From assembly GCA_000004985.1 (NCBI GenBank), contig GG738884.1: DNA of 64,000 nt; one strand, written 5' to 3'. Shown in pieces: positions 1,867-48,911 of the stretch (the stretch's first letter is position 1; the number at the start of each line of letters is the position of its first letter). The DNA comes from Naegleria gruberi (lineage: Eukaryota). The position numbers were made by a program, and so were the translations under genes. The notes below the pieces were generated by a model. The model did no database searches and was not told the DNA's origin. It saw only the letters and a list, made by a program, of their open reading frames with translations.

Positions 1867-3030
1867 ATGGATGGATTCTCACAGGAACGTAAGAAGAGGG
1901 ATGAATACCATGGGAAAAGTTTCTACATTCGACCTGCAATGTTTCTGATTAGGAGAGGGAAGGTCATCCATTCGTGGCGATTGAATTATGCCGATCATTG
2001 TCCTAAGGTTTTGGAAGAAATTGTTTTGAAATTGGATTTGAAAAGTGGTGGAGGTGATGATTTGGAAAGTTTGAAAATGAATGAGAAAAATGTTGTGAAA
2101 ATTGAAAGTAAGAAAGTTATTGGAAAGGAAGAAGAGATGTTGAATGAAGTTTCTAATGAAAATGAAACAAGGAAGGAAGAATGTCAAAATGTAATAATGG
2201 AAATGGAATTGAAAGAATGTGAATCTCAAATCAAGGAACAAATTCAAATGGAAGAAACTAAACTTGACGAATCTACCCTTCAAACCATTGAAATTTCCAC
2301 ACAAATCGACATGCCAATCATTGACACTTCTAGAGAAATTCCAATCTACAAGAGAAAACAAGCAAGCTCATCATTGGAAATAATCACACCAACTGAAAAG
2401 AAGGAAAATGAAAAAATTCAAACAATCAAAGCAAAGAAATCTCTCCAACCTAAATATTCCTGTTTTGGAAATCGAAATGTGGTAGGAGATTCGGATTTGA
2501 ACATGTTGGTAGTTTTGGAAAATCCGAAACTTCGTAAATATTTCAAACTGTTTGCACATATGGAATTTAATATTGAGAATATTCTATTTTGGGAAGAAGT
2601 TAATACTCACTACAAGCCAATTGCTTCATTTTCCAAATTTGACAAGACGAAATCAATTGCTACAAGTATTGGAAACCTTTTCCTATTCGATTCTCATTCA
2701 GTCATGCACGTAAATACTTCGGATAAATTAAGGGAACAAGTAAGGGAACAAATTCAATTTCATTTCGAATCAAAATCCATTACTGAACTATTACCATCGA
2801 AATATAGAGTTAATAGATCATTAGAAGACACTGCTGTCGATCCACTTTCGAATACACCAGAAGAATCTGACAACATTTCACAACTTTCAATTGCTGATCG
2901 ATTTAATGAAACAGTTACTGGAATATTTGATCCCATCATTAACGAAATGTTATCCTCTTCCATACAGGACATGTTTTTAAGATTCAGGACAAGTGATTTA
3001 TTCTCCCAAATGATTTCTTCAGTAAAATAA
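1867..3030 (+). CDS. RGS (regulator of G-protein signalling) domain protein, 387 aa
   Basis: ATG start verified. C-terminal block SDLNMLVVLENPKLRKYFKLFAHMEFNIENILFWEEVNTHYK matches the RGS-box core (F..F...EFS.ENL.FW). The N-terminal part is K/E-rich. Confidence 0.7.
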   Translation: MDGFSQERKKRDEYHGKSFYIRPAMFLIRRGKVIHSWRLNYADHCPKVLEEIVLKLDLKSGGGDDLESLKMNEKNVVKIESKKVIGKEEEMLNEVSNENETRKEECQNVIMEMELKECESQIKEQIQMEETKLDESTLQTIEISTQIDMPIIDTSREIPIYKRKQASSSLEIITPTEKKENEKIQTIKAKKSLQPKYSCFGNRNVVGDSDLNMLVVLENPKLRKYFKLFAHMEFNIENILFWEEVNTHYKPIASFSKFDKTKSIATSIGNLFLFDSHSVMHVNTSDKLREQVREQIQFHFESKSITELLPSKYRVNRSLEDTAVDPLSNTPEESDNISQLSIADRFNETVTGIFDPIINEMLSSSIQDMFLRFRTSDLFSQMISSVK

Positions 3031-10247: not shown

Positions 10248-11198
10248 TGTAAAGGTCAACTTTAAATGTTCTGGTTGACCTTCCAAGGATGTGTGGTGGC
10301 ATCCAGATTAGAAAGTATTAGAAACTTCTTAAGCATGGATATCTAGATATGGAAAGCGAATATTTCTATAAATGCATTTTTGTATGAGCAACTTGGGAAA
10401 GTGAAGATACGATACAACGAAACTGTAATGATACGTTTGTATGCCACGTCTGGAGATTGGCTTCGCACATGATTTTAAGCAATTTGGCAAAACAACTTTT
10501 TTGTGTTTTAAAGTGCTTTATTTTGAAACAACACAAGAAATCAAACAACAATCTTTTGATAATTAGCTGAAGATTGAGCCAACTTTGAAATCTTTTCAAA
10601 TAACATCAAGTCTTTATTCAATAATTGCCAAATCCTTAAAATTTTCATCTCACGATCTGGCAATTTCTGCAAACTAGTTGAGAATAGGTTTAGTTTAGTC
10701 TTGTCCACCTTCTATTTCAGTATTTTGTTGAAACACTGAAAACCGCTACATATCCATCTCCACTAATTTTAAAAATCTAGTCATCAAATATGGAATATTT
10801 AAAAATCTCTATATAAAACCCTTCCTTTACTTATTGGCGATCGCTACAATGCAATTCCTTAATAGCTTTATTCGAAACTTAGAAAGTCTTTATAGCCAAG
10901 CTTCAAACACTATCAAAAAAACATTCAAACTGGTTTAGAGCATTTGTTCAGTCTTTAATTCAACGTTTCGTACAAAATAGACAGCTTACTTTAATTTATT
11001 AGAAACTCCAAGCTAACCTAAAGGTTTCGAATACTTCATCCCTCCTATTTCAAATTTACTTCCTCGATCAGTCAATAAGAAACTTGGTCATTGTACATTT
11101 CAGATAAGCTGTTATCTAAAAGAAATTTAATATTTATGTAGATTGCTGACAAGTTGCTTATTTGGAAACACCTAATTTATCTAAAACAACATTTTGCA

Positions 11199-12059
11199 AT
11201 GTGTCTTCACACCCAGAAAAAAATGTCAAGTCCTTCAACCTCAGTTTCGAATAATTTGGTTTCGTCTGGTTCATTTCACTTTCACAATTTTGATCCAAAA
11301 GCAAATGAAGAGAAGAAACGATTGAATAGAGAAATGATTGCAAAGAATACACATAATGGAATGGCATTTAAACCAAGCAAGTATATGGTTGATATTCAAC
11401 ATTCGAATAATAATCAAAGACAAGTTTCACCTGCATCTCCAGTTTCGTATAGAACAAGCCGATCAAATTCTTCTTCGAACAAGTCTGCTGCTAAAACGAT
11501 TAGCAATTCTCATTCATCGATTTCCAAACAACACAAGCTACTTTCGAATAATCACCAATACTCTAAGAGTAGAATCTGTGAGAAACAACTGACCATTAAT
11601 GCTTCTGAATGGAACTCCATCAAGCAATCTATTGAATCAAGAAGCAGAAATGTTTCTAATTGTTCAAATTCAAGCACTCTAAGCAAATCTAGTTGTTACA
11701 TTGACAAAAACTCTGTAAATGGTGATTATTCGAAAGGTTTCGTAAATTGCCCGTCCAACCGTAACTATTCAAGCAACTACCAAGTCTATTCTCCTCTGGC
11801 TCACTACTCTGAATACTCTCAAAATATATCACTAAGCAACACATCAAATCTGCCAAGTCAATTATCAATCAGCAAAACTATTCCACTAACCAGTTCAATA
11901 TCACCAAATAATGTCCCGTTCACCCGCTCCATGGCCACTCATTGTGAAAGATTACCCTCCATTCAACATTTACTTGAAACTATTCCAATAACAAAATTCG
12001 AAAGACGAAACAATAGTCAATTAAACACAGTTTCAATAATTGAATTGTTGAAACAATAA
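11199..12059 (+). CDS. Ser/Asn-rich hypothetical protein, tandem paralog A
   Basis: The ORF-track start at 11154 is TTG; the first in-frame ATG is at ~11199. Shares the motif F..DP...EEKKR..RE.....N..G..F.PSKY with the next gene. Confidence 0.4.
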   Translation: MCLHTQKKMSSPSTSVSNNLVSSGSFHFHNFDPKANEEKKRLNREMIAKNTHNGMAFKPSKYMVDIQHSNNNQRQVSPASPVSYRTSRSNSSSNKSAAKTISNSHSSISKQHKLLSNNHQYSKSRICEKQLTINASEWNSIKQSIESRSRNVSNCSNSSTLSKSSCYIDKNSVNGDYSKGFVNCPSNRNYSSNYQVYSPLAHYSEYSQNISLSNTSNLPSQLSISKTIPLTSSISPNNVPFTRSMATHCERLPSIQHLLETIPITKFERRNNSQLNTVSIIELLKQ

Positions 12060-12279
12060 ATGTCATGAATTAAATTGCCTTCAAAAGATGTTAACTCTGC
12101 ATAACATTAAAATTTGGAAAACCAAGATTTCCCTTCCTGCCAAGTTGTCATTCCCAAAATGGACAATTAAAAAAGTTGAAAGGCCAGTTACAGAGATAAA
12201 TGCCGACGCATCTTTTATCGAATTGGTAACATCATACTAACATGAAGTGGTTTGTTTTGCATCAAAAAAAACAAAAGAA

Positions 12280-12972
12280 ATGCAACAAGACAGTCCTCGT
12301 CAAGTTTTGAATGCAAATTGTAATTATTCAAGCTCAACTGTTGTGAGTAGAAGGAAGGGAAGGGGAACGTCTGGAAAATGTAGTGGAATGATGGAGAGTC
12401 ATCATTTGGTTTCGAATAATAATCCATGGTTGAGGTTTCATTCTTATGATCCAGTTGAACATGAAGAAAAGAAGAGAAAGTTGAGAGAATACTCAAAACG
12501 AAACGCATACAAGGGTTTACACTTTAGACCAAGCAAGTATAATCAAGAGGTAGTTAAATTTTCAGTACAAGCTCCTAACATGTTGAGTGAGCAGAATCTA
12601 ACAGAAAGGTCTGTATTAAAAGTTGATGAGAAGGCATGTAGTGCACATCAAGTGATCACCAACTCAAAGATACCACTCACTCATTTTCAAGTTTCTTCCA
12701 TTATTCAGTTGGAATCGAATAGCTTAATTTCAACAACAAACAACATCCAAGCACCAACCGCCTCCAAATCAACATGCATTCAATTCACCCATCAAAACTC
12801 TAGAAACGTTCTTCCCTCCATAAATGAAATACTATCTCTCTCCAAAATTCAAAAAGCACCACACAAAATGATTCACAACTCATCTCTCCAAATCATCCAA
12901 CAAAACTCAATCAATTCTGACAATTTTCAATTGGAAAATCTAACTCTTGCACCAATCAACATGTACTTCTAA
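12280..12972 (+). CDS. Ser/Asn-rich hypothetical protein, tandem paralog B
   Basis: The ORF-track start at 12247 is GTG; the first in-frame ATG is at ~12280. RFHSYDPVEHEEKKRKLREYSKRNAYKGLHFRPSKYNQE parallels FHFHNFDPKANEEKKRLNREMIAKNTHNGMAFKPSKYMVD of the upstream gene. Confidence 0.4.
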   Translation: MQQDSPRQVLNANCNYSSSTVVSRRKGRGTSGKCSGMMESHHLVSNNNPWLRFHSYDPVEHEEKKRKLREYSKRNAYKGLHFRPSKYNQEVVKFSVQAPNMLSEQNLTERSVLKVDEKACSAHQVITNSKIPLTHFQVSSIIQLESNSLISTTNNIQAPTASKSTCIQFTHQNSRNVLPSINEILSLSKIQKAPHKMIHNSSLQIIQQNSINSDNFQLENLTLAPINMYF

Positions 12973-13116: not shown

Positions 13117-15048
13117 ATGGGAAAGAGAGAATTATACAGAAATAAACAAGCTTTGGCTAATGCTGCTCCTCTGGCTCAAGCACACTCCCAACCGCTTGGT
13201 ATTACCATCGGAGCACGTACATCTAATGTAAAGATGCCTAAGGAGGCCATTCCAGCCATCTATTATGAAAAGATTTTAAAATACATGAAAACAAAGGAAA
13301 TGTTGAATGATATTGCAGGAGCTTGCACTAAATATTTGTACAAACCATCGGATTGGAAGTATTATTACTTTGAACATCGTTGGAAGGAATATTCTAACGT
13401 GAGAAGAGCCTTGCGTAAATTAATTCAAATGGGAACACTTCAAGTCTTGTTGAGAGGAAAGTATTATAAGGAAGAGACTTCTGATCCAGAAGCTATTACA
13501 AGTGGTGGTGCCTCTTCTTCTACTGATAATAATCAATCAGCTGATGCTAGTAATGTTGCTTCCGAAGAAGTTTTACAAGTAAAAGAAGAAGAATTTGAAA
13601 CTTTTGTAATTGGAGGAAGAACATTAACTAGAAAAAAGTATGTAAAGGCTTCTTCTGTGCCATCGAATAAGAAGGCCACCACTCCAGTTGATCAAGAGGA
13701 AATTCAAATTGAAGAAGAAGAAACAATTAATCAACAAGCAATGAATAAGAAGAATAAGAAGAAGAATAAGAAAAACAAAAAGAAGGATCCTTTTGAATTG
13801 GATGAGGAAAATGATGATCAAGATGATGGAACTTTTGATGGATTTGAAATTACCAGAGATGAGGATCGTCCACAATTATATGAATTGAATGAATGGAAAG
13901 ATGATCCAAAGAAGAATAAGAAACAAAATAAGAAACAAAACAAAAAGCAAAGTTCTAGTTTGGAAATTGAAGAAGATACTTTTGTAAAGGAAGAAGAAGG
14001 TGGTGATAAGGGAATTCCTTCTAAAGCTGTACATATTGATTTTAATAATATCAAAAAGATTGTAAAGGCAACTGAAAAGATTGATTGTGCTGAAAATGAA
14101 GCAGTTCAGAATATTACTCTCAACTTGACAAGAAAATCAAAGGAAGAATCATCCAGCTCTCAGAAAACTGTGATTCAGGTTGTTAAAGGTGACATGTTGG
14201 AAACTGCAATTAGTTTGAGAAGGATTTGTAAACTTAATCCACTCGTTTTGGTCTCTGGTAGCCAAACTGTTCCAGGAGGATCTTTTGCTAAGGGAGGAAA
14301 TACTCAAGAGGAAGATTTCTGTAGAAGATCATCATTGTCTTTAGCAATTGCTGATCCATACAGATTTGATGAAACTAGAGAGTGGACTTACCCATTACCT
14401 GAATTTGGAGGAATTTATACACCAAATGTTGTAGTGTTAAGAGGTCCAAAGAGCGATGGATATGCCTTCTTGGATAGAACATGGGCTTGCTCAATGTTTA
14501 TCACCTATCCTTATGTGAATCCACCAACAGAGAAGAGAAAGGTAGCCGATCCAAATACTGTCATTCCAAATGAAGAGGACGATGACGAAGAAGTAACAAC
14601 TGAGAATTTCCTCTCTACCAAATTGTCCAACTCAATGAAGAAGAAGATTGCTGCCTACTTTGATGTTGCATTAAAGAAGGGTCATGATTCTCTTGTTATT
14701 GGTGCTCTTGGTTGTGAAAATACTCACTCCAATCCTGCCTATCATATTGCTCAACTTTTCAAGGAAGTATTGGCAAGTGAAATTTTCAAGGACAAGTTCA
14801 AGGTTGTCATTTTCTCTATTTTGGTTGATAAGGAAACTGATAGCAAGTTGGCCAATGAAGGTGGTGCTGACGATGTGGAAGAAGTTGAGGATAATGATGA
14901 CGTCGAAGATCAACAAGATATCTCAACCAATCTGCTCGATACTTCAATTGAAAGAAAGAATAATCTTTCAGTATTTTCCAAATTATTCCACGGAAAGGAA
15001 GAAGCTCCAACAGCTGAAGAATTCATTCCAACCATTGAATGTAAATAA
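13117..15048 (+). CDS. macro-domain protein of the microbial-type PARG / DUF2263 (TIGR02452-like) family with a K/E/D-rich repetitive N-terminal region, 643 aa
   Basis: Signature VPGGSFAKGGNTQEEDFCRRSSL matches the GG...G..QEE....S.L catalytic motif of bacterial-type poly(ADP-ribose) glycohydrolase macro domains. The N-terminal half contains KKNKKKNKKNKKK and KKNKKQNKKQNKKQ repeats. ATG verified. Confidence 0.6.
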   Translation: MGKRELYRNKQALANAAPLAQAHSQPLGITIGARTSNVKMPKEAIPAIYYEKILKYMKTKEMLNDIAGACTKYLYKPSDWKYYYFEHRWKEYSNVRRALRKLIQMGTLQVLLRGKYYKEETSDPEAITSGGASSSTDNNQSADASNVASEEVLQVKEEEFETFVIGGRTLTRKKYVKASSVPSNKKATTPVDQEEIQIEEEETINQQAMNKKNKKKNKKNKKKDPFELDEENDDQDDGTFDGFEITRDEDRPQLYELNEWKDDPKKNKKQNKKQNKKQSSSLEIEEDTFVKEEEGGDKGIPSKAVHIDFNNIKKIVKATEKIDCAENEAVQNITLNLTRKSKEESSSSQKTVIQVVKGDMLETAISLRRICKLNPLVLVSGSQTVPGGSFAKGGNTQEEDFCRRSSLSLAIADPYRFDETREWTYPLPEFGGIYTPNVVVLRGPKSDGYAFLDRTWACSMFITYPYVNPPTEKRKVADPNTVIPNEEDDDEEVTTENFLSTKLSNSMKKKIAAYFDVALKKGHDSLVIGALGCENTHSNPAYHIAQLFKEVLASEIFKDKFKVVIFSILVDKETDSKLANEGGADDVEEVEDNDDVEDQQDISTNLLDTSIERKNNLSVFSKLFHGKEEAPTAEEFIPTIECK

Positions 15049-15166: not shown

Positions 15167-16039
15167 TTAATTACTCTTGTCTGATTCTTCGCTCTTCTTG
15201 GCATTCTTGATGAGCCATTGTAAAGTCTTGTCAATATTTACAGAATTTTTAGCACTAATTGAGTAGCAAGATACTTCTCGTCCAGTAATAAGTTTGAGAT
15301 CCAATTTGTCAATTAATTCTTGTACACCTCTAGCATTTGGTAAATCATTCTTATTTCCAAGTACCAGTAAAGGAATAGTCGAAAGAGAGGCTTTTCCAAC
15401 CAATTCATGAAGCTCCTTTTTGGCTACTTCCAATGTTTGTTCATCACTTGCAGAGTCCACAACATATACAATAGCTCCAACTCCTCTACAATATCTCTGT
15501 GTTTTTTGAAATGTAATATTATAACAATCATAATATTAGATAGAATGTGATGACAACAAGTATGAAATTAAAATTAAATATATTACGTTCATATCAAATA
15601 CATACCTCCCACATGTTTCTGAATTTGGATTGACCTATTATTGTCAATTTAAATCATCGTTAGTATCATGATAATCCAAAGTTATTAGAAAAATATTAAA
15701 TGATTAGAATAACAATTTGTCATCACAGTTGAACAACATATGATGGACCATCATCATAGTTAATAGTGATGATTATAATAATAAATAATTGAATAGTTTT
15801 CAAAAGAATGACATACCTCCGATATCCCACAACTTGATTTCTACACCTCCTTTACTCACTTTTCGCATATTAAAGCCAATAGTTGGTATAGTATCCTCAT
15901 TCATCTGACCAAATGAAATTGTATTTACAAGTGTCGTTTTACCAGCATTTTGCAATCCGACCAATGTAAGTTCCAACTCTTGCTTCCAGAAGAGTGATTT
16001 AATCCAATCCATCAATGATTTCAAAGCTGCTGCTAACAT
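15167..16039 (-). CDS. ARL8: ARF-like GTPase ARL8, three exons: 15817..16039, 15606..15634 and 15167..15496 (approximate), ~193 aa
   Basis: Exon 1 [80 protein letters not shown] donor. 29-nt micro-exon encoding (G)[15 protein letters not shown] donor. Exon 3 [20 protein letters not shown]...NKNDLPNA...[17 protein letters not shown]. Splicing restores the conserved GQ.RFR..WE.Y switch-II region of Arf-family GTPases. Confidence 0.8.
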
Positions 16040-16439: not shown

Positions 16440-18494
16440 ATGGGACAAAACCATTCAGGTGGATCAAATTCTGTGGGTGGAATGGGAGGAACACTAGTTG
16501 GAGATCAATACAAACCACCAGATCGTACCACAAACAATCTAGCTTCCTCCTTTCATACCAAAGAATCCATCAAAATTCAACAGCAGCAACAACAACAACC
16601 CGATTCAAATACAAACAACAATAATACATCGTCAGGTAATCTTGTTCTGATAGCAGCATCCAACACTTCCGATGCCTTGCTCATGTCCATCGCAGAGTTA
16701 GTCATTGTTCTCCAACAATTGGGTGAGATTCATCTCGTTGTCTTGCTGGAGGAAATTTCTCGTCACTACTACGAGATTCAAATTGGAGGCAATTTTTCTT
16801 CTCTGGAAGCAATTGCTGCTGCTAACAATAACACACAAGGAAATGGCGCCACTTCTCCAACACAAAATTTACAGGGTGGTGGCCCTCTCGCCAGTACATC
16901 ATTTAAAAATGGCGCCACTGGAAATTATGGCAACTCGAATGTAGATAATGGTCTGAAGAAGTACATTAATTGTGCCAAGTATACTCCCACTTGGTTGGAA
17001 GATGAGGGTGTATTTGGAGGTGGTGGTGGTATCGGAAGTGGATCGATTGGTAGAGGGAGTAGAATTAGTATTGGAGCAACATCAGGAAATAATGGCATGG
17101 ATGAAGATGATATGGAGGAGGATTATGGTGTAAATTATAATACGGATTCTGCTTTTCAGGTCTGGTTGATTGCATTGAAGGATAGACAATTACCGAGATT
17201 TAAGAGAAAATTGGAAAAGTTATTTGTGGATAATAGTGGAGGAGCAAGGAAGGTTGCCTTCTCTTTCAATGTACAAATGTCAACCTCATCGACAAATAGT
17301 TTGAGAAGAGCTTCTTCATTCCTACACGCACAAACTAATCCAAAAACTAATTATGTCATTGATATGGATAGTAAGCAGAAATATTTTGAGGTGAGGTCAG
17401 AGATGGAAATTATTCTCACTCATACTCTTGAGGAAATTAAAGATTTGAAAGAATGTTTGGATGCAAAGAGAAAAATCGAAGGAGGAACATCAAGTACCAG
17501 TGGAGCTGATGTTGCCGATGTTTCGGTTCTCCTTCAAGATTTTGATTTTGAATGTAGTTGGTGGGAGAAGAAGATTGGCTCCTCCAATTTCAGTGTCAAG
17601 AAGAAGGCATTTATTGATGCCATTGAAGAAACTTTTGCTCACTTGAAAGTCAAGTTTGAAATTGAGGTTTTGGAAGAGATTTCAGATCCAACTTGTGATG
17701 GAGTTGTAAGTGTGACAGATTTGAAAACTCTCACTAGATGGTTGGGCAGTATTTACAAGTGGAATACTGACGAATTGAAATTGAGAAATATTGCTGGAAA
17801 AGAAGATGCTGCACCAGTTATTTTCCTTCCTCATTTTTGGGGTTCAGTGACATGTTACGATGCACAAGATATTTTACAAAAGGAAGAACCTGGAACGTAC
17901 ATTATTCGTTTCAATGAGAACGAGCCTGGGCATTACTACATTTCATGTGTTCAGGAAAATGTTGTGGAAAATGAGGAGACTAGCTCAAATACTGGATTTT
18001 TTGCCACTCGTCAAGTGTATCACTTTGTATTGAAGAGAGGAAAAACTGAGAAGGGAGAACCTTACTATTACTTGTCCGATGCTGATAAGAGTCACAAATT
18101 CAAGACCATTACTGAGCTACTTGATAAGAATTACTTTTTGACATTCAAATATCCATATGTCAATGACGATCTCAAGTCTGCATTTGTTTCAAAGAAGAGA
18201 GATGTCGATGTCTTTGGTGCATTGAAGAGTTTATCAGGAGAGGGTGATGATTTGAATCCTTATCCATTTGTTGTATATAAGGGAAAGTTCAATGTTAATG
18301 AAAAGAAGAAGGAATCAGACATGAAAAAGATTGCCAATTTAGCTAAAAAGACTACTGAGCCGTCATTGGGCAATCCAGTCAATAATAATTCATCCTCAAG
18401 CATTAAAGATCAAGAACCAGGTATGGTACGAGTGGATTCCCTCAATTTACCACTGAGTAATAGCAAGGAAGAAACTTTAGATTTATCTGAATAA
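16440..18494 (+). CDS. SH2-domain-containing protein with a Q/N-rich N-terminus (possibly STAT-like), 684 aa
   Basis: FWGSVTCYDAQDILQKEEPGTYIIRFNENEPGHYYISCVQ fits the SH2 fold (W.G.i.r..a...L.....G.fl.R.S......y.is). N-terminus has poly-Q and N runs. ATG verified. Confidence 0.7.
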   Translation: MGQNHSGGSNSVGGMGGTLVGDQYKPPDRTTNNLASSFHTKESIKIQQQQQQQPDSNTNNNNTSSGNLVLIAASNTSDALLMSIAELVIVLQQLGEIHLVVLLEEISRHYYEIQIGGNFSSLEAIAAANNNTQGNGATSPTQNLQGGGPLASTSFKNGATGNYGNSNVDNGLKKYINCAKYTPTWLEDEGVFGGGGGIGSGSIGRGSRISIGATSGNNGMDEDDMEEDYGVNYNTDSAFQVWLIALKDRQLPRFKRKLEKLFVDNSGGARKVAFSFNVQMSTSSTNSLRRASSFLHAQTNPKTNYVIDMDSKQKYFEVRSEMEIILTHTLEEIKDLKECLDAKRKIEGGTSSTSGADVADVSVLLQDFDFECSWWEKKIGSSNFSVKKKAFIDAIEETFAHLKVKFEIEVLEEISDPTCDGVVSVTDLKTLTRWLGSIYKWNTDELKLRNIAGKEDAAPVIFLPHFWGSVTCYDAQDILQKEEPGTYIIRFNENEPGHYYISCVQENVVENEETSSNTGFFATRQVYHFVLKRGKTEKGEPYYYLSDADKSHKFKTITELLDKNYFLTFKYPYVNDDLKSAFVSKKRDVDVFGALKSLSGEGDDLNPYPFVVYKGKFNVNEKKKESDMKKIANLAKKTTEPSLGNPVNNNSSSSIKDQEPGMVRVDSLNLPLSNSKEETLDLSE

Positions 18495-28465: not shown

Positions 28466-30991
28466 TTAAGGAGATTGCACACTCTTAATATGTTCTTTCC
28501 ATTTCCTTGAATTATTAAATCTATAAAACGAGTCCATTAAATTTTTGTAAACCTCTGTTTGTAAAGTTGGGAAAATATTTGGTTTACAAATGTTTGTAAT
28601 GAGCGGTTTCATGAGTTCTTCTTGGGATTGATCGATATTTGGGAAATATCTCAATGAAATATCTTTCATGATACGAGGAAGTTGGTTGATTTTGAGTTTG
28701 TGGTTGTTGAGAAGGTTTTGAAGTTCTTTGTAATCTTTCAGTTCAGTGTGGATGATTTTGGAAGGAACGTTAATTTCGAATACTGAACTGCTTTCGGATA
28801 GGTAGAGTTTAGTCATTTCCTTGATTTTCATTACTTTGGAACGAACGTGTCTTTCGTTAATCTTTCTCAATCGATTTAAATCCTCAATGAAGAGTAAATT
28901 TTCAACTGAATATTCTTCTCTCAAATATTGATAGAATAAATCTCTTTCCTTCTTGTGTGAAATGATAAAGTCAATTGAGTAGGAACAAATTGGAGAGGAG
29001 AGTAATTGTTGAATACTTTGAATAGCGTTGGCGTTCTTATCATTGGAGGAATCACTGTTATTGAGATTGGCGGCTTTTCTCTTTTCTTTAAAGGCAAGGA
29101 AAAAGTTCCAAATGCCTTTCATTACAGTTATGCCTGGATTACTGATCGAGCCACCAAGGAAATTGAGACCAATAGCTAGTACGAGTGATGAAGTCAATTG
29201 TGAACTAATTGGGCCATATGATGGGACAATAACGAGAACTATTCCAGAAGCAATATCGAAAATGACAATGAAAAGACTTTCCACTCTATATACGAAAGGA
29301 TCAGTTTCGTAAAAGTAGTAAATAAAGAAATTTTCAGTCTTTTCTCCCTTTTCCTTATTGATTCTTCTTGTTTGGATGTATTTGTAAATGGAAAATATGA
29401 AATCCACTGCCAAAAATAATGGAATAGCAAGGAATAGTATAAAAAGAACGATAATTGCATAAATAGAAACATTGTCTCTATCAATCTTTCTACAATATCC
29501 ACTGTTTTGCTCCCAAGAGTAAAAGACACTCTCCCAGGAGTCTTTCGCATGAGAAGCAACTCTAACACTGATAATTACAAACCAAACAATGACCCACAAG
29601 GAAATATACGATATTTCAACAATTCGATATTTGATAATCTTCTTCAACAAGTTGGCAAATCTTCCTTGTTTGGAAATTTCTTCGTAAGATGTAGAGATGG
29701 CATCGTCATCGGTTGTCAAATCCAAAGCAATGTCATCGTAATCAGAGTAGGCATTGGAAATTTCATCAAGTTCTGAAGGCCTTGAACCTCTGGCAGACAT
29801 TGGTGCATCACTATTGACTGATTGTGAAAGAGAACTCAAATCCAAAGTCGAAACACCCTCATTAAGAGCAACATTTGAAGCACTAGAAGGGAATTGACCT
29901 AAATCTTCAGTACTTTCTGCTGGTCTCCTCAATGATTTTCTGTTTTGAATTGTATTGGAAGTAGCGTTTTGCTGTTCTGTCTTGTTTTGTAATTTGATGT
30001 TTTTGAATTTTTCCAATTGCTTTCGTTTGAAATCTTCCAATGATTTTACAATATCCTGTCTCTTGTCCTTTAAAAGTGTCAAAAGCAAGAGTTTGATAAT
30101 CTGAATACTATACAGAGCTACACTGAGAACGACAAGCCCATAAAGCACATACGAATTAACGAAACAATACACATTCTCAAATGTAATATAATTGACCAAC
30201 CAATTTGGCAAACCATTGCTAGAATTCAAGTTATTTTGATAAAAAGTTGCAGCGCTAACCGATTTAGTACTCTTTTCCATTAAAAATTGATTCCAATAAC
30301 TTTCAAAATACATCTTAATCCACGGTAAAAAATCAAGTGTACCCTGAATATGACTGATAACATTCAAACCAACCAAAATTAGTGAAACAAAGAATTTCGA
30401 CTTGATTGGTTCATAATTTCTCAACAGGAAAATGCAACATGTGAGAAAAATATCAAAAATGACAATTACTACTCTGATAGCAATTGTCACAGTCGTAACC
30501 AAATTATTTCCACTAATCATGACAATTGCCTGCTGAGCTGTAGTCAAATTATAAGTAACATTTCCCAACAGGATTGAAAATTCTGTCGTGTTATAATCCT
30601 TCAATGCAACATCAGATGGTGCTTGAATTACTTCATGTTGTGAAGAATTATCAACAACAACAACTGAGAGATGATGCATTGTCATGAGTGATGGTGAGTC
30701 GATATCATTTGGGATAGAGTATGTTTTAAAACGATCTGCTAGGTGACCAATTGTGTTGATTAGGAAGTTCTCCTGACTTTCTAAATGTGTTTTTGTTGAG
30801 GTGGAACGTGTTGATGGAATACTGGTGGCTGACATTGTTTCGGCAAAAAAGCATGTATTGCACAAAAAGAGAAACAAGACTACAAGTATGGTAAGAGTAT
30901 AAATTTTTCTAGAACGGCTTTTTGGAAAGTGGCTTGTTGATGGAGACATTTTGTGTACGAATGATGACATGTGGTGGCAATGCTGTTTCAT
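28466..30991 (-). CDS. multi-pass membrane protein with a C-terminal RGS domain (7TM-RGS-like), ~841 aa
   Basis: The ORF-track start at 30994 is TTG; the adjacent ATG is at 30991. Seven or more hydrophobic segments, for example AIVMISGNNLVTTVTIAIRVVIVIFDIFLTCCIFLL, FFVSLILVGLNVISHIQG, VLYGLVVLSVALYSIQIIKLLLLTLL, ISLWVIVWFVIISV, VSIYAIIVLFILFLAIPLFLAVDFIFSIY and LFIVIFDIASGIVLVIVP. These are followed by FIISHKKERDLFYQYLREEYSVENLLFIEDLNRLRK, an RGS box. Confidence 0.65.
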   Translation of the reverse strand: MKQHCHHMSSFVHKMSPSTSHFPKSRSRKIYTLTILVVLFLFLCNTCFFAETMSATSIPSTRSTSTKTHLESQENFLINTIGHLADRFKTYSIPNDIDSPSLMTMHHLSVVVVDNSSQHEVIQAPSDVALKDYNTTEFSILLGNVTYNLTTAQQAIVMISGNNLVTTVTIAIRVVIVIFDIFLTCCIFLLRNYEPIKSKFFVSLILVGLNVISHIQGTLDFLPWIKMYFESYWNQFLMEKSTKSVSAATFYQNNLNSSNGLPNWLVNYITFENVYCFVNSYVLYGLVVLSVALYSIQIIKLLLLTLLKDKRQDIVKSLEDFKRKQLEKFKNIKLQNKTEQQNATSNTIQNRKSLRRPAESTEDLGQFPSSASNVALNEGVSTLDLSSLSQSVNSDAPMSARGSRPSELDEISNAYSDYDDIALDLTTDDDAISTSYEEISKQGRFANLLKKIIKYRIVEISYISLWVIVWFVIISVRVASHAKDSWESVFYSWEQNSGYCRKIDRDNVSIYAIIVLFILFLAIPLFLAVDFIFSIYKYIQTRRINKEKGEKTENFFIYYFYETDPFVYRVESLFIVIFDIASGIVLVIVPSYGPISSQLTSSLVLAIGLNFLGGSISNPGITVMKGIWNFFLAFKEKRKAANLNNSDSSNDKNANAIQSIQQLLSSPICSYSIDFIISHKKERDLFYQYLREEYSVENLLFIEDLNRLRKINERHVRSKVMKIKEMTKLYLSESSSVFEINVPSKIIHTELKDYKELQNLLNNHKLKINQLPRIMKDISLRYFPNIDQSQEELMKPLITNICKPNIFPTLQTEVYKNLMDSFYRFNNSRKWKEHIKSVQSP

Positions 30992-31396
30992 CAAAATGAT
31001 GAAAATTGATAGTGGCTAATGTTATGTTGATGATGGAGAGAGGCTTTTTTATCTCAATATTATCTCTCAATAGTAAAATTGATAATATTTAAAGATTCTA
31101 ATAGTTTCGGCAAGTTGTTTGTTTTTTTTAGATGGTTCAATGTTCAAAAGGCATGTACAAAGTTTCCGTGTTTTTTGTTGAACTTGTAAAGCTCAAAAGT
31201 ACAGTGCTATTGTATGTTGGTGTTGAGCAATTTTTTTTCGTAATTACGAAATAACAGCCAAATCAACAAGAAACGTCAAATCATGCAGATTAAATTCCAA
31301 AAGGGAAGCATGTACCAAATTTAATAGAGAATGAACTTTACAGCCACAATACAACAACAACCATATTTATTTACAATGTATCAGTTCTCAAAGTCC

Positions 31397-34300
31397 TTAT
31401 TTATCTTCACGTCCTGGTGAATAGGCAGGAGATGATGGACTATAGCTTGGACTAGTTGGTGAATAGCTAGGACTGGTTGGAGAATAAGCAGGTGAAGATG
31501 GACTATAACCACCACCAGGATTGTAACTTGGACTGCTTGGTGAATAGGCAGGAGAAGATGGTGAATAGTTTGGACTGGATGGTGAATAAGCTGGTGATGA
31601 TGGTGAATAATTTGGACTGCTTGGTGAATAGCTTGGACTAGTTGGTGAGTAAGCTGGAGAAGATGGACTATAACCAGCACCAGGACTTGTAGCACGTGGA
31701 CTAGTTGGAGAGTAAGCTGGTGATGATGGTGAATAGTTTGGACTTGTTGGAGAATAAGCTGGTGAAGTAGGCGAGTAAGCAGGAGATGTTGGTGAATAAT
31801 TTGGTGAAGTTGGTGAGTAAGCTGGTGATGTAGGACTGTAATTTGGACTTGTTGGTGAATAAGCTGGTGAAGTTGGTGAATAGTTTGGACTACTTGGAGA
31901 ATAAGCAGGTGAGGTTGGACTATAATTACCTGGTGAGGATGGAGAATAGCCACCTTGATGTCCAGGAGAAGTTGGAGAACTAGCAACTGGAGAGAATGCA
32001 GAATTATAAGGTGAAGGACTGAATCCACCTTGGTATTCTGGTGAAGGAGTTCTTCCAAGAGGAGTCATTGCACCTTGAGTCCATGGACTTGAAGCACCAC
32101 CATGATATGGGGTAGCAACACCACCATGATAAGGTGTAGCCAAACCACTTGTATGATAAGGTGTTGTTGCACCAAGACTTCCATACATTGATTTAGTTTC
32201 AGTAACAAAGCTTGGTTTAACAGCAACAGCTTGCTTCAATAATTCTTCATCCAAATACAAACCAAAACAACCAGTACCAATTGGAGCCAATTGACCAACC
32301 ATAACGTTAGCAGAAACACCCTTCAAAGTATCAGTATCAGCAAATGTAGCAGCTTCAATAAGAATTTCAACAGTTTCTTCGAAAGAACATCTCATCAATG
32401 GACCAGTGTCACTACGATTAATACCGTGACGAGTAATAGCCATCAAACCACCTCTGTGAGTCATAACATCACACAAAATGGCCAAGTGACGATAGTTAAC
32501 ATAAGAACCGTCAAATTCAATAACCTTTCTCATTTCTCTCATGAGGGCATTTCTACATGCTTCAATACCCAAAACATCAAGAATTTCATTAACATCGTTA
32601 GATGTTGTAATAGTATGATCAACATAAGGGTGAGATAAGACAGCCAACAAGTTACATCCTTCAGTATCCAAAACCCATTGTTTAACAGTAGCAACACCAG
32701 AACTGCTGAAAACCTTCTTGTCATTTTCTTCTCTCAAAAAGACCTTCTTGAGATCCTTATAACCCTTAAGGGCCAATTCGTTCAACATGTTTGATTCGAG
32801 TCTTCTCAAAAATTCAACAGTACTATTTTCAATGTCTTCTTCTTCAAGCTTTCTGAGAACTTCATCACTTGGATCCTTTGCAACTTGAGCATCCTTTTCC
32901 TTTTCTTTATCATCCTTGTGAATACGAACAACGAGAATAAGTTTGTCAGCGTTATCGTCAGAGTAGAAACAAGTAATGTCGTTTTGGAATTCTTCTTGAA
33001 TCTTCTTAGCAACTTGAGCCATAGTCAATGTGTCACTCATCATCATCTTGTCAAGTTCAAATCTGAGAGACCATGGATTGAGAGTAGTTGAATCCAAAAC
33101 TGCTGTATCCTTGAGTTCTTCCAACAATTCTTCTATGAATTCTCTATCTTCTTCAATAACAGAGTTTGCTGGCTCTGGATCGTAAACAATTGAAGTAGCA
33201 GCAGTAACATGTCCAAGAGTAGTATATTCCAAATCTTCCTTAACCATCTTGGCCTTTTCAAAGTCACCAATATATTCATTATTCAAATAAATAGTCAAAC
33301 CTGGAGTCTTAATATTCTTGGCAACGTTCAACAATTCCTTCAAACGAGGAACACCCAAAGTAACGTTCTTTGAAGACACACCGGCAAAGTGGAAAGTATT
33401 CAAAGTCATTTGAGTAGCAGGTTCACCAATAGATTGGGCAGCAACAGAACCGACCATTTCACCTGGTTGAGCCAAACAATTGTGGAATCTCATTCTAATT
33501 TCACCAACCAAAAAGTCAAAGGCTTCTTGGGTAAGACACAATTCTTTAAGAACAACCTTTGAAGAGAAGGTTGATCTCAAGAACATACTGAAAAGTAAAG
33601 TTGCATTAGTTTGAGCTTCAGTTGACAATTCATCAGTACCCTTGATAACAACCAAGTCGTCACACAACTTCTTAATCTTTTCAATAACATAAATAGGATT
33701 CATGTCTGATGGCTTACCAATACTTGGATGGATACCATATTCTTTTTGAGCATTCTTAATAATACGTTTCAAGTTGACAGGCATGACAATCTTATTTTCA
33801 GCATTAGGGAAGATTTCAGTACGTAAAATGTGACGATCTTCCATCAAAGTCTTGTATTCTTCACGGACCTTTGAGAGATAGGTTGCAGGATCCTTCAAAA
33901 TTTCATCATAAACCTTAGTAGAAATGAAAGACTCCTTAAGAATACCACCTGATGGCATTGAAACACTAGATTCAGTTGGGTTTGTGAAAGAAGGAGAACT
34001 ACCAAGAGAATTGTACCAATACTTGTCTTGGAATTTAGCATCACTCAAATTCATAATATCAATTGATTGAGATTCAACCTTGTGGGCATCCATACCATCT
34101 TCACCATACAAGAATTGGACAACATTACCTTGAGCATCACGGACAGTACCATCGTACTTGACCATGATATCTTCCATAGCCTTTATCAATCTTCTTTGGA
34201 TATAACCAGTTTCAGATGTCTTGACGGCAGTATCGATCAAACCTTCACGACCACCCATAGTGTGGAAGAAGAATTCTTGAGGAGTTAAACCTCTGAGGTA

Positions 34301-36897
34301 ACTGTTAGCAACGAAACCACGACTTTCAGGACCATGGTCATCTTGGGCAAAGTGAGGTAAAGTTCTATTACGGAAACCATAAGGAATACGTTTACCTTCG
34401 ACGTTTTGCTGACCGACACAAGCAATAATTTGTGAAATGTTAATGTAAGAACCCTTAGAACCGGCTGTCACCATGGACTTGATGTTATTGTCATCCTTCA
34501 ATGACTTCTTAGCCTTGTTACCAGCATCTTCTCTGGCCTTGTTAAGAACCTTGTTAACTTGATTTTCGAAAGATTGTTGAATAGTTCTACCAGCTTCAGC
34601 TCTCAATTTACCTTCTTGAGCATCCTTGACAATAAGTTTGACGTCCTTTTCGGCTTTTCTAATAGTTTCTTCGATTTGTTCCATAGTAGCTTTATCGGCA
34701 ATAGTGTCACCAATACCAATACTGAAACCACGGTTAATAAGCCAATGGTTAATAACTCTTTGACATTGGCCCAAGAATTTCTTTCCTTCATTAACACCCT
34801 TTTCATTGACAATAATGTGAATCAATGAACCGTGAGAAGAACCTAGAGATTTCTTGTCCAAAACACCTGAAACTAATTCACCTCTGTCAATTAAAACCTT
34901 TGTATCAAATTCAGGTATGTCGTGATCCAAGTGATCTTTCTTATCGGTCAAATCTTCGTGGGTTGATGATGTATTTTCAAGATTGACTTTTGGAAGAAGG
35001 AATGTGAAAAGTTGTTTACCAGTCCACAATGGTTTTGGTTTCAAAATAGCTGGAACAGGTAATTTACCATCAAAATCAATCAAGTGCATTAAGCAATTCA
35101 TCATTAAATCTTTAGCAATAAAGACATCACGACGTGTAAGTTTAGAAGCAGCCAATAAAGTATCTTGGACAAGGGCAATAACTGGTCTGTTACTTTGAGG
35201 AGTAATAATATTCCTAGGGACCATCATTAATTCTAACAATTCGGCTTTTGTTTGAAGAGATTGTGGAACGTGCAAATTCATTTCGTCACCGTCAAAGTCA
35301 GCATTGTATGGGGTAGTGACTGACAAATTCATTCTGAATGTACTGTAAGGCATGACCTTAATTCTGTGACCCATCATAGACATTTTGTGGAGAGAAGGTT
35401 GTCTGTTGAAAAGAATAACATCACCATCTTGTAAGTGACGTTCAACTTTGTAACCATATTCCAATTGAATTTGATCGTTAGCTTTTCCTGAAGCAAATCT
35501 CAAATCGATACGTGTACCATCTTCACGAATAACATACTTGGCACCAGGATAAGTTAAAGGACCATTTGTAACTAATTCATTCAATCTTTCAAAATTGAAA
35601 GGTGTAACAATTTCAGGTACTGTCATATTTGAAGCAACAGTACGAGGAACACCAACTTGATCAATATCAATATTTGGATCGGCAGTAATGACAGTTCTTG
35701 CAGAAAAATCAACACGTTTACCCATCAAGTTACCTCTGACACGTCCTTCCTTACCCTTCAATCTTTGTCTGATTGACTTTAAAGGTCTTCCACTTTTAGT
35801 TGTAGCTGTTGGAACACCTGGATATTCATTATTCACATAGGTAGCACAGTGATATTGTAACATTCTAACCATTTCTTCCATTTGATGAAGTGGTGTACCT
35901 GACTTTTCATTCTTTTGAATGGCAGCATTAGCCTTGATAATATCTGCAAGTTTGTGTGTCAAGTCATCTTCAGAACGATCAGCTGAACCGTGGTGAACAC
36001 TTGGACGAACCTGTGGTGGAGGAATAGGTAAACATGTAAGAATCATCCATTCTGGACGAGCATTATCCTTATCAAAACCTAACAATTCCAAATCCTCAGC
36101 AGGAATTCTCTTAAAGATTTGAAGAGCACGTTCTGCTGTCAATTCTTGTTTTGTTAATTCTTGTTTAGCTTCGGCGCTAGTATCCTTCTTATATTCTGCA
36201 AAAATCTTTAATCCATCTCTGGAAATCTTAGGTTGGAGACCACCACAACCATTTCTTGGTTGGAAAGTTGGGTCAATATTAGCTTCTTGATTTTGTTCAT
36301 TTTCCTTGTTTCCTGTTTCTATTATACATTTGTCTTTTCTACACAGATCGATCATTTCTTTGAATCTTTTACGTCTGTTCACGAATTTTGATGCCTTCTT
36401 AAATTGTAAGCTACTCTTATCCGCTAAAAGTTTACCACAATGAATACACACACTTTGTAGCACCTTCACTACTGTATTAATAAAGAGAACATTAAACACT
36501 GGATGTATTCTAACGTGGCCAAAGTGACCAGGACATTCTGTAGCGTTACCTCCACAACTATTATTGTTAATTAGTTATTATTATTAGTGATGTTGTTGTT
36601 GTAATAGTTTGTTATCATTGTTGATGAGAGAAATTATGAAGAACAGGATTTTTGTATTAAAGATTAGAGGCTTGTTAAATTTCCTCCAAATACTTACGTC
36701 AGACAAGAAAGATGGTGATCAATGGTACCCATACGAAGATCCATCAAACCACTTTCCTTTGGTTTTCCCTTTTCTTGTGTTTCAGCGTGAAGCACTTCAC
36801 AGACAGACATCTTTTCAATAACTTCAGGATTCAAGATACCGAATTGAATTCTATCAACTCTGGCCAATTCGATTGGCGAGAACGAGAAGAGAGACAT
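31397..36897 (-). CDS. RPB1: DNA-directed RNA polymerase II largest subunit RPB1. Two exons, 36698..36897 and 31397..36557; intron ~140 nt with GTAAGT...AATAG. C-terminal domain of ~24 heptads.
   Basis: Exon 1 MSLFSFSPIELARVDRIQFGILNPEVIEKMSVCEV...GLMDLRMGTIDHHLSCL joins exon 2 T-CGGNATECPGHFGHVRIHPVFNVLF... Universal RPB1 motifs follow (NADFDGDEMNLHVPQS and others). CTD [28 protein letters not shown]... ends at 31397. Confidence 0.95.
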
Positions 36898-48837: not shown

Positions 48838-48911
48838 TTAATAATAATAATAATGGAAAATATCAAGCAGCCGATTCCGATGATGAACATGAAGAAGATT
48901 TGCAGAGTTTC

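What the first reader, a model, noticed from the sequence alone, without database searches (positions are those of the whole stretch)
13117..15048. Microbial-type PARG-like macro-domain protein with lysine-rich (KKNKK)n repeats
The C-terminal half has the diagnostic GGSFAKGGNTQEEDFCRRSSL signature of bacterial-type poly(ADP-ribose) glycohydrolase (DUF2263/TIGR02452) macro domains, a family patchily distributed in eukaryotes and often attributed to horizontal transfer. It is fused to a long acidic region interspersed with basic KKNKKKNKKNKKK / KKNKKQNKKQNKKQ repeats that resemble nuclear or nucleolar targeting, suggesting a nuclear ADP-ribose-processing enzyme.
Basis: partly seen in the sequence, partly recalled or inferred. 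Interest (0 to 1): 0.5.

Follow-up and report, generated by a model that had tools for sequence, protein, structure and literature searches.

The report
Naegleria bacterial-type PARG with disordered insertion
This is a real, intron-free gene of a Naegleria-like amoeba for a bacterial-type poly(ADP-ribose) glycohydrolase, a family already reported in Naegleria; its lysine-rich stretch is a disordered insertion inside the enzyme domain, and two ADP-ribose-binding loops differ from the family norm, so it is an ordinary family member with some unusual details.

Summary

The interpretation needs three corrections.
- **Not a fusion.** Residues 93-119 are the first helix of the PARG domain. The acidic/lysine-rich stretch (about residues 120-305) is a disordered insertion of about 180 aa, where relatives have a median of 8 residues.
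- **Signature only partly canonical.** The catalytic Q-E-E is kept (E398, E399). GGG is GGS, and the diphosphate-loop G[AV][FY] motif is N-T-H with one extra residue. These derived loops are conserved among Naegleria orthologues and a paralogue, which suggests a remodelled site still under selection.
- **No sign of recent transfer.** The gene sits in a heterolobosean clade (bootstrap 78-94%) beside eukaryotic relatives that share an N-terminal extension.

The window ends in TTTGGG repeats, published as the candidate N. gruberi telomere. N. gruberi was already reported to have up to seven such genes with variable signatures. Nuclear targeting and activity remain inferences. Interest is low to moderate.

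The parts
13117..15048 (+). Complete intron-free CDS, 643 aa, bacterial-type PARG family protein
   Evidence: ORF list. Full-length alignment to N. lovaniensis C9374_002239, at 53% by BLASTP and 59% in the MAFFT alignment.
13117..13188 (+). Residues 1-24: basic N-terminal tail with low model confidence
   Evidence: pLDDT 46-50. Conserved only among close orthologues.
13189..13392 (+). Residues 25-92: N-terminal helical extension (P[LF]GI...PK..P..Y....F.P..W..Y), specific to a largely eukaryotic subfamily of bactPARGs
   Evidence: A profile search of 1.84 billion representatives gave 17 hits; every hit scanned against Pfam carried PF10021 except one spurious HTH-repeat protein. An iterated HMM finds the extension in Balamuthia, Planoprotostelium, Ramicandelaber, Acrasis and Willaertia proteins. 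pLDDT is above 90 from residue 41. Modelled alone it has no PDB fold match, best E=2.9.
13393..13473 (+). Residues 93-119: first helix plus short strand of the PARG catalytic domain (RRALRKLIQMGTLQVLLRGKYY), separated from the rest of the domain
   Evidence: R100, T107 and Y116 are near-invariant in 80 family members. Deleting residues 122-305 extends the Pfam and TIGR02452 matches to model positions 4 and 5 and adds about 5 bits. Relatives without the insertion have this helix contiguous with the domain.
13474..14031 (+). Residues 120-305: disordered acidic/lysine-rich insertion inside the catalytic domain
   Evidence: 189 residues lie between Y116 and H306, against a family median of 8 (IQR 8-9, n=76). 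pLDDT is below 50 for 131-157, 175-247, 251-264 and 269-288. 32 K/R and 43 D/E. No Pfam hit.
13747..13785 (+). Basic cluster 1, K211-K223 (KKNKKKNKKNKKK), NLS-like
   Evidence: Three overlapping K-K-x-K matches. 12-nt tandem periodicity. A basic cluster at the same position occurs in the orthologues and in N. fowleri paralogue P0012.
13822..13905 (+). Residues 236-263: conserved acidic-aromatic motif DDGTFDGFEI.R.ED...LYELNEWKDD inside the insertion; candidate short linear interaction motif
   Evidence: Conserved in window, P0001, P0002 and P0003, and recognisable in P0012 (STFEGFEI) and Acrasis (LPEWKDD). Its function is unknown.
13909..13950 (+). Basic cluster 2, K265-Q278 (KKNKKQNKKQNKKQ), NLS-like
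   Evidence: K-K-x-K match. 12-nt periodicity. Position conserved in orthologues.
14032..14841 (+). Residues 306-575: core of the bactPARG macro domain
14272..14331 (+). Residues 386-405: catalytic loop PGGSFAKGGNTQEEDFCRRS. GGS stands in place of GGG. Q397-E398-E399 are kept, and E399 corresponds to the catalytic Glu (DrPARG E112)
   Evidence: Q, E and E are invariant in 80/80 sequences; G389 is G in 70/80 and S in 3/80. Alignment to DrPARG. DrPARG E112A is inactive (PMC6445106).
14533..14601 (+). Residues 473-495: second, short acidic insertion
   Evidence: 23 residues against a family median of 4. Locally lower pLDDT of 68.
14710..14736 (+). Residues 532-540: diphosphate-binding loop GCENTHSNP. 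The family consensus GC-GA[FY]xNP is replaced by a one-residue insertion plus N-T-H
   Evidence: Column counts: a residue at the E534 column in 5/80 sequences, N535 in 3/80 (G in 75), T536 in 3/80 (A in 74), H537 in 4/80 (F/Y in 76). The derived form is conserved in N. lovaniensis, P0002 and paralogue P0012. The role of the motif is taken from PMC7050489.
14842..14952 (+). Residues 576-612: third, acidic C-terminal insertion
   Evidence: 44 residues between D571 and N616, against a family median of 11. pLDDT 51-59.
14953..15036 (+). Residues 613-640: conserved C-terminal segment (KNNLSVFSKLFHGKEEAPTAEEFIP), the last element of the family domain
   Evidence: N616 and F620 are near-invariant in the family. 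pLDDT 84-96.

Best explanation
The ORF encodes a heterolobosean (Naegleria) paralogue of the bacterial-type poly(ADP-ribose) glycohydrolase family, and it most likely still works as an ADP-ribose O-glycosidic hydrolase.

Shown here:
- It has the bactPARG macro fold.
- It keeps the Q-E-E catalytic triplet. E399 is equivalent to the catalytic Glu of the D. radiodurans and T. curvata enzymes.
- The fold is split after its first helix by a disordered insertion of about 180 aa. The insertion carries two lysine clusters that flank a conserved acidic-aromatic motif.
- It is preceded by an ordered helical extension shared with other eukaryotic family members.

Inferred:
- The macro cleft binds a terminal ADP-ribose. 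E398 holds the distal ribose, and E399 protonates the leaving group and activates water to cleave the ribose-ribose bond, as in the solved bacterial enzymes.
- The lysine clusters act as classical nuclear or nucleolar import signals, or as polyanion tethers. This would bring the enzyme to PAR made by the PARP1-type enzymes that Naegleria has.
- The altered Gly-rich and diphosphate loops (GGS; N-T-H) are a remodelled binding site that is still under selection, not a decaying one. The substitutions are sterically conservative: Asn for Gly, Thr for Val/Ala, His for Phe/Tyr.
Against: GGG is GGS, and the G[AV][FY] hydrophobic patch is absent. That patch strains the distal ribose in PARG-like enzymes (PMC7050489). 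It is replaced by N-T-H with an extra residue. Sister sequences show further erosion: N. fowleri paralogue P0012 has Q-E-D, Acrasis has Q-E-A, and Willaertia P0004 has a 4-residue deletion in the loop. Perina et al. stated that the functionality of Naegleria bactPARGs with partial signatures is only speculative. No localisation or activity data exist. I had no model coordinates, so I could not inspect the site geometry.
Confidence: 0.6

Rival explanations
1. Neofunctionalised hydrolase. The remodelled loops (GGS, KGGNT, GCENTH) change substrate preference from PAR chain ends to another ADP-ribose conjugate, for example ADP-ribosylated RNA/DNA ends or 2'-OH RNA. The lysine-rich insertion would bind the nucleic acid.
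For: The derived loops are conserved across Naegleria orthologues and a paralogue rather than drifting. Bacterial-type PARGs hydrolyse 2'-OH RNA ADP-ribosylation and ADP-ribosylated 5'-phosphate ends of RNA/DNA (PMC11833690). The insertion is strongly polybasic in two blocks.
Against: There is no direct evidence for any substrate. The same catalytic residues serve PAR and nucleic-acid substrates in the bacterial enzymes, so loop changes need not imply a new substrate. The insertion is net acidic overall, with 43 D/E against 32 K/R.
Confidence: 0.2
2. Catalytically impaired pseudo-enzyme. The macro domain has lost efficient hydrolysis and acts as an ADP-ribose/PAR reader or as a scaffold. The conserved acidic-aromatic motif and the K clusters would mediate interactions.
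For: Two of the three family-defining active-site motifs depart from consensus. The close paralogue and sister sequences show loss of the catalytic Glu (Q-E-D, Q-E-A) or a loop deletion. Perina et al. doubted the functionality of such variants. N. gruberi has up to seven paralogues, so redundancy would allow loss of activity.
Against: In this gene both Glu residues, R403/R404 and the YPLPEFGG block are intact. The derived loops are more conserved than the domain average. The substitutions are sterically conservative (inference).
Confidence: 0.15
3. Recent horizontal acquisition from bacteria of a DUF2263 gene that then picked up eukaryotic low-complexity sequence.
For: The family is mostly bacterial and patchy in eukaryotes (PMC4245714, PMC6445106). 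Bacterial members (Microscilla, Treponema, a deltaproteobacterium) appear among the profile hits.
Against: The gene nests in a clade of Naegleria, Willaertia and Acrasis paralogues (bootstrap 86%, 78%, and 94% with P0019). Its nearest outside relatives are eukaryotic proteins that share the same N-terminal extension. GC content of 0.34 equals that of the surroundings. Any transfer would predate heterolobosean diversification. Caveat: this is only a neighbour-joining tree, it is midpoint rooted, and the hit list is biased by a eukaryote-built profile.
Confidence: 0.03
4. Gene-model artefact: the low-complexity stretch is an unspliced intron or an assembly artefact joining two genes.
For: The sequence is A-rich and low in complexity with short tandem periodicity. 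The N. lovaniensis gene model does contain an intron elsewhere.
Against: 184 codons run in frame without a stop (P of about 4e-8 to 2e-6). The basic clusters and the intervening motif are conserved at protein level in at least five other sequences. Both flanks belong to one fold.
Confidence: 0.02

Closest known systems
Bacterial-type PARG of Deinococcus radiodurans (PDB 5ZDA-5ZDG) and Thermomonospora curvata (PDB 3SIG/3SIH)
   Different: About 20% identity. GGG is GGS. The diphosphate loop GCG[VA]F is GCENTH. The window protein has an ordered N-terminal extension of about 90 aa, a disordered insertion of about 180 aa after helix 1, and two further acidic insertions. It is eukaryotic and probably nuclear, not a bacterial single-domain protein.
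Naegleria lovaniensis C9374_002239 (P0001) and related uncharacterised Naegleria/Willaertia proteins (P0002, P0003, P0004, P0011, N. fowleri FDP41_008054)
   Same: Same architecture end to end: N-terminal extension, split helix 1, K-rich/acidic insertion with the TFDGFEI...LNEWK motif, derived KGGNTQE and GC.N[TS]H loops, and conserved C-terminal tail.
   Different: 53-59% identity to the closest. No conserved gene neighbourhood with the N. lovaniensis locus. The window gene has no intron. None of these proteins has been characterised.
The 'up to seven' bactPARG genes of Naegleria gruberi reported by Perina et al. 2014 (PMC4245714)
   Same: Same organism group and same family. The authors noted that only three copies keep GGG-X6-8-QEE and the others have partial signatures. 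The window's TTTGGG terminal repeats match the candidate N. gruberi telomere.
   Different: The paper gives no per-gene description in the text held here, so I could not confirm that this exact gene is one of the seven. It does not describe the intradomain insertion, the N-terminal extension or the diphosphate-loop change.
Canonical eukaryotic PARG (e.g. Tetrahymena 4EPP, Drosophila 8ADJ)
   Different: No match to the canonical PARG_cat family. It lacks the canonical helical accessory domain. Here the targeting-like region is inserted within the fold rather than N-terminal.
UBA-fused bactPARGs of Balamuthia and Glomeromycotina (P0030, P0066, P0080)
   Same: Eukaryotic bactPARGs. The Balamuthia UBA-annotated protein P0030 carries the same N-terminal extension, showing that the family acquired eukaryotic accessory modules.
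   Different: They carry a folded UBA domain. They keep the short canonical helix-1-to-core spacing (family median 8, and they are not among the long-insertion outliers). The window protein has a disordered insertion and no UBA.

Membership tests
Microbial/bacterial-type PARG (Pfam PF10021 PARG_cat_microb; NCBIfam TIGR02452; formerly DUF2263) | Sequence match to the family HMMs above the curated thresholds | tested here: met
   PF10021 64.8 bits vs cut-off 23.5. TIGR02452 79.3 bits vs cut-off 50. With the insertion deleted, the scores are 72.1 and 87.3 bits and the match covers model positions 4/5 onward: to position 145 of 146 in PF10021 and to position 255 of 266 in TIGR02452.
Microbial/bacterial-type PARG | Macro-domain fold closest to the solved bacterial PARGs | tested here: met
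Microbial/bacterial-type PARG | Catalytic Gln-Glu-Glu of the PARG signature (second Glu = catalytic, DrPARG E112 / TcPARG E115) | tested here: met
   Q397-E398-E399 are present; these columns are invariant in 80/80 homologues. Alignment to DrPARG. E112A is inactive (PMC6445106).
Microbial/bacterial-type PARG | Full signature GGG-X6-8-QEE (Gly triad) | tested here: not met
   The sequence is G387-G388-S389-X7-QEE. Position 389 is Gly in 70/80 homologues and Ser in 3/80. Signature as defined in PMC4245714.
PARG-like macrodomain hydrolases (canonical and microbial) | Diphosphate-binding loop with the G[A,V][F,Y] hydrophobic patch that strains the distal ribose (PMC7050489) | tested here: not met
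   The loop is G532-C-E-N-T-H537, i.e. N-T-H in place of G-A-F/Y, plus a one-residue insertion. The derived form is conserved within Naegleria.
Microbial/bacterial-type PARG | Hydrolysis of poly(ADP-ribose) ribose-ribose bonds; exo vs endo mode set by the ribose cap | not testable with these tools
   This needs enzyme assays.
Nuclear/nucleolar proteins with a classical NLS | Basic cluster matching K-K/R-x-K/R that is necessary for nuclear import | tested here: inconclusive
   Four K-K-x-K matches lie in two clusters that are conserved in position. Import itself cannot be tested in silico here.
Recently horizontally transferred bacterial gene | Phylogenetic nesting within a bacterial clade and/or atypical composition | tested here: not met
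   Heterolobosean clade with bootstrap 78-94%. The nearest outgroups are eukaryotic and share the N-terminal extension. GC 0.34 matches the flanks. Neighbour-joining tree only.

The most novel reading that the evidence does not exclude
The Naegleria-specific subclade to which this gene belongs is a neofunctionalised branch of the bactPARG family. Its ADP-ribose-binding loops have been rebuilt (GGS; KGGNT; GC-E-N-T-H), and a conserved disordered module (two polylysine blocks around a TFDGFEI...LNEWK motif) has been inserted into the fold. The result would be an enzyme or reader with a substrate or partner different from PAR chain ends, for example ADP-ribosylated nucleic acids in the nucleolus.
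Probability: 0.25. Interest if true: 0.45.

Novelty: new member of a known kind. Interest (0 to 1): 0.27.

Why it matters
Bacterial-type PARGs in eukaryotes are catalogued but essentially uncharacterised, and Naegleria has the largest reported set. This copy shows how a compact bacterial macro-domain enzyme was adapted to a eukaryote. It gained a subfamily-specific N-terminal helical extension. It tolerates a disordered, NLS-like insertion of about 180 aa within the fold. It also carries a conserved variant of the two loops that grip ADP-ribose.

If the variant site is active, it widens the sequence definition of a functional PARG signature. If it is not, it is a clear case of a macro-domain pseudo-enzyme. 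Either result would help in annotating the many 'partial-signature' PARGs. It does not open a new kind of system, and no pathogen-specific or therapeutic implication follows from the data here.

Tried and rejected
- **Independent fold for the N-terminal region:** an AF2 model of residues 1-125 (pLDDT 78.5) gave no significant PDB match (best E=2.9). I therefore treat it as a family-specific helical extension, not a known domain.
- **Other domains in the protein or the insertion:** Pfam and NCBIfam at E≤1 gave only the PARG models plus one noise hit.
- **Paralogues in the window:** tblastn of the protein against the window found only itself.
- **Exact-sequence look-up to identify the source record:** not on record.
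- **Synteny with the N. lovaniensis orthologue:** none within ±10 kb, so orthology rests on the tree (75% bootstrap) and on the shared architecture.
- **Functional link to neighbouring genes:** the neighbours are a ZIP transporter, DUF4116, an Arf-like GTPase, an SH2 protein and RGS proteins. They are unrelated, as expected for a eukaryote.
- **Primary T. curvata PARG paper:** the PMC id I tried (PMC3184140, recalled from memory) was not held. I took residue roles from PMC7050489 and PMC6445106 instead.
- **Perina et al. supplement for per-gene N. gruberi accessions:** nothing held.
- **P0016:** I rejected this hit of the N-terminal profile as spurious; it is a repetitive HTH protein.
- **Intron or artefact reading of the insertion:** rejected (conservation).
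Full report
**1. What is in the sequence**

Window 13117..15048 (+) is a single ORF of 643 aa.
- PGGSFAKGGNTQEEDFCRRSSL at residues 386-407.
- KKNKKKNKKNKKK at residues 211-223.
- KKNKKQNKKQNKKQ at residues 265-278.

The two lysine blocks coincide with short 12-nt DNA periodicities. The start codon is right, because MGKRELYRNK aligns with MGRRELYRNK of the closest homologue. The low-complexity part is coding. 184 codons without a stop have a chance probability of about 4e-8 (local composition) to 2e-6 (window composition). The encoded motifs are also conserved in other species.

**2. Source organism and context**

The best homologue is a hypothetical protein of Naegleria lovaniensis. It is 53% identical by BLASTP and 59% in the alignment, over the full length. 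Others come from Willaertia magna, N. fowleri and Acrasis kona.

The surrounding genes are ordinary eukaryotic nuclear genes: Rpb1 with CTD repeats, Vps8, RGS proteins, an Arf-like GTPase with an intron, an SH2 protein and a ZIP transporter. The window ends in 55 copies of GGTTTG, which is TTTGGG permuted. TTTGGG has been published as the candidate telomeric repeat of N. gruberi (PMC3622300).

No N. gruberi protein appeared in any search, and the exact protein is not on record. My inference is that the window is a chromosome end of N. gruberi or a close relative that the databases do not include. GC content is 0.34 in the gene and in its flanks.

**3. Family assignment**

- PF10021 (PARG_cat_microb): E=1.5e-17, 64.8 bits, cut-off 23.5, residues 317-442.
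- TIGR02452: E=3.3e-22, 79.3 bits, cut-off 50, residues 316-572.
- phmmer finds the solved D. radiodurans and T. curvata PARGs.
- The AlphaFold2 model was built with an 80-sequence alignment. It has pLDDT above 90 for residues 41-125, for most of 301-575 and for the C-terminal tail, and pTM 0.74.
- Foldseek ranks TcPARG and DrPARG first (E=2.9e-12, TMt 0.68).

Membership of the bactPARG family by homology and by fold is therefore secure.

**4. Architecture: an insertion, not a fusion**

The data show something different.

A profile of the conserved N-terminal 120 residues was searched against 1.84 billion representatives. It found 17 proteins. Every hit that I scanned against Pfam carried PF10021, apart from one spurious HTH-repeat protein. 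In relatives such as P0018, P0020 and P0022, the segment ...R.A.R..VQ.GT....LRGKYF runs straight into ...LPDG..V.L.., and Pfam aligns it to model positions 3-4 onward.

In the window protein, R100, T107 and Y116 are family-wide near-invariant positions. Deleting residues 122-305 in silico extends both HMM matches to model positions 4-5 and adds about 5 bits. The spacing between Y116 and H306 is 189 residues here, against a family median of 8 (IQR 8-9, n=76). The stretch between them is predicted to be disordered, with pLDDT below 50.

So residues 93-119 are the first helix and strand of the catalytic domain, and residues ~120-305 are an intradomain insertion. Two smaller acidic insertions exist: residues 473-495 (23 against a median of 4) and residues 576-612 (44 against a median of 11).

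Within the big insertion, two lysine clusters flank a conserved motif, DDGTFDGFEI.R.ED...LYELNEWKDD. This motif is shared with the Naegleria orthologues. It is recognisable in an N. fowleri paralogue and, in part, in Acrasis. That is the signature of a short linear interaction motif embedded in disorder.

**5. The N-terminal extension**

Residues ~25-92 (P[LF]GI..PK..P..Y....F.P..W..Y) are ordered in the model. An iterated HMM finds the extension in many eukaryotic bactPARGs: Balamuthia (including a UBA-annotated protein), Planoprotostelium, Ramicandelaber, EukProt transcriptomes, and more weakly Capsaspora and cnidarians. Modelled alone it gives no significant PDB match. It is best described as a subfamily-specific helical extension of unknown role.

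**6. Active site**

Across 80 homologues, Q397, E398, E399, R403 and R404 are invariant, and all are kept here. E399 aligns with the catalytic Glu of DrPARG (E112; E112A is inactive; PMC6445106).

Two other defining elements depart from the norm.
- **Gly triad.** The GGG of the GGG-X6-8-QEE signature is GGS. Position 389 is Gly in 70/80 homologues.
- **Diphosphate-binding loop.** The consensus GC-GA[FY]xNP is GCENTHSNP here, i.e. a one-residue insertion and N-T-H in place of G-A-F/Y. Each of these states occurs in only 3-5 of 80 sequences. [quoted passage not shown]

These are not random lesions. KGGNTQE and GC[EDG]N[TS]HSNPA[YF]H are shared by the window protein, N. lovaniensis, P0002 and the N. 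fowleri paralogue P0012. Loop identities are 0.70-0.82, against 0.50-0.63 for the catalytic domain as a whole. By general structural reasoning, which I did not test, Asn often substitutes for Gly in positive-phi positions, Thr is isosteric with Val, and His can replace an aromatic. The loop may therefore keep its shape.

On the other side, close relatives show real erosion: Q-E-D in P0012, Q-E-A in Acrasis, and a loop deletion in Willaertia P0004.

**7. Evolution**

I built a neighbour-joining tree of 118 catalytic domains (255 columns, Kimura distances) with 200 bootstraps. Support values are:
- window + N. lovaniensis + P0002: 75%
- the Naegleria/Willaertia copies: 86%
- adding Acrasis: 78%
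- adding metagenomic P0019: 94%

The nearest sequences outside this clade are eukaryotic proteins with the same N-terminal extension. Labelled bacterial members lie further away. This is a lineage-specific paralogue expansion, not a recent transfer.

This agrees with the literature. Perina et al. reported bactPARGs in all eukaryotic supergroups except plants, up to seven in N. gruberi, with only three having the complete signature and the functionality of the rest being 'speculative' (PMC4245714).

Caveats: the tree is neighbour-joining only, midpoint rooted, and the sampling is biased by a profile built from eukaryotic sequences.

**8. Mechanism proposed**

Shown: the bactPARG fold, the intact catalytic Glu pair, the split domain with a disordered insertion, the conserved basic clusters and motif, and the derived loops that are nonetheless conserved.

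Inferred: the enzyme binds a terminal ADP-ribose and uses E399 for acid/base catalysis of the O-glycosidic bond. The K clusters (four K-K-x-K matches) drive nuclear or nucleolar import, or tether the enzyme to a polyanion. The substrate is PAR made by Naegleria PARPs, which include a PARP1-type enzyme (PMC2964712).

My probability estimates:
- active and probably nuclear ADP-ribose glycohydrolase: about 0.6
- changed substrate, for example ADP-ribosylated nucleic acids, which bacterial PARGs can reverse (PMC11833690): about 0.2
- reader or pseudo-enzyme: about 0.15
- recent HGT or gene-model artefact: together about 0.05

**9. Verdict**

The 'fusion', 'diagnostic signature' and horizontal-transfer parts of the interpretation need correcting. 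The gene is an uncharacterised member of a family whose presence, multiplicity and signature variability in Naegleria are already published.

The intradomain disordered insertion, the eukaryotic N-terminal extension and the conserved variant of the diphosphate loop are useful annotation details, and they give a testable question about PARG signature tolerance. They do not define a new kind of system. Interest is 0.27.

Noticed in passing
window 63670-64000 (runs to the window end); preceded by 58000-62000: 55 tandem copies of GGTTTG (TTTGGG permuted, 98% matches) with the G-rich strand running 5'->3' to the end of the window. An AT-rich zone (GC 0.20-0.27) and strong positive GC skew lie just before it. 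This looks like a chromosome end. TTTGGG is the published candidate telomere repeat of N. gruberi (PMC3622300).
   Followed up: partly
window 11154-12059 (+) and 12247-12972 (+): Two adjacent ORFs just upstream of the PARG gene share a 48-aa motif (F/L-H-x-F/Y-DP..EEKKR..RE...N..G..F[KR]PSKY; 46% identity, E=5e-10). They have no Pfam family. They appear to be tandem paralogues of unknown function. Both were listed with non-ATG starts, so their true starts are uncertain.
   Followed up: partly
window 15167-15460 and 15800-16039 (-): An Arf/Arl-family small GTPase encoded in two exons separated by an intron of about 340 nt, convergent with the 3' end of the PARG gene.
   Followed up: partly
window 16440-18494 (+): A 684-aa protein with a single SH2 domain (E=1.4e-7) near residues 466-561 and long low-complexity Q/N/G-rich regions. 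It may be STAT-like, which I did not examine.
   Followed up: no
window 1867-3030 (+), 28466-30994 (-), 43122-44555 (-): Three separate genes with RGS (regulator of G-protein signalling) domains within 45 kb.
   Followed up: no
window 31397-36499 (-); 48900-53342 and 53314-55719 (+): The RNA polymerase II largest subunit (Rpb1, all seven domains plus CTD repeat hits). A Vps8-like gene is apparently continued in an overlapping second ORF with a Vps41-type TPR hit, which suggests a frameshift or an intron between the two ORFs.
   Followed up: no
P0012 (N. fowleri FDP41_008054), P0015 (Acrasis kona AKO1_011855), P0004 (Willaertia magna): Paralogues or sister sequences of the window protein have lost canonical catalytic features: Q-E-D, Q-E-A, and a 4-residue deletion of the diphosphate loop, respectively. 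They keep the rest of the domain. This suggests repeated drift toward non-catalytic forms in Heterolobosea.
   Followed up: partly
L001 10001-12065 (N. lovaniensis PYSW02000015.1): The N. lovaniensis orthologue is annotated with an intron; two overlapping reading frames meet near L001 11367-11412. It sits in a different gene neighbourhood (actin, Elongator Iki1, ankyrin protein, histone deacetylase). The window gene is intron-free.
   Followed up: partly
P0030 (Balamuthia), P0066/P0080/P0083 (Glomeromycotina), P0074 (metagenome): Other eukaryotic or metagenomic bactPARGs are fused to UBA domains (PF00627/PF22562) or to a PF08719 domain (source name: 'ribA/ribD-fused uncharacterized protein'). 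This hints at ubiquitin-linked and nucleic-acid-linked roles in the wider family.
   Followed up: no
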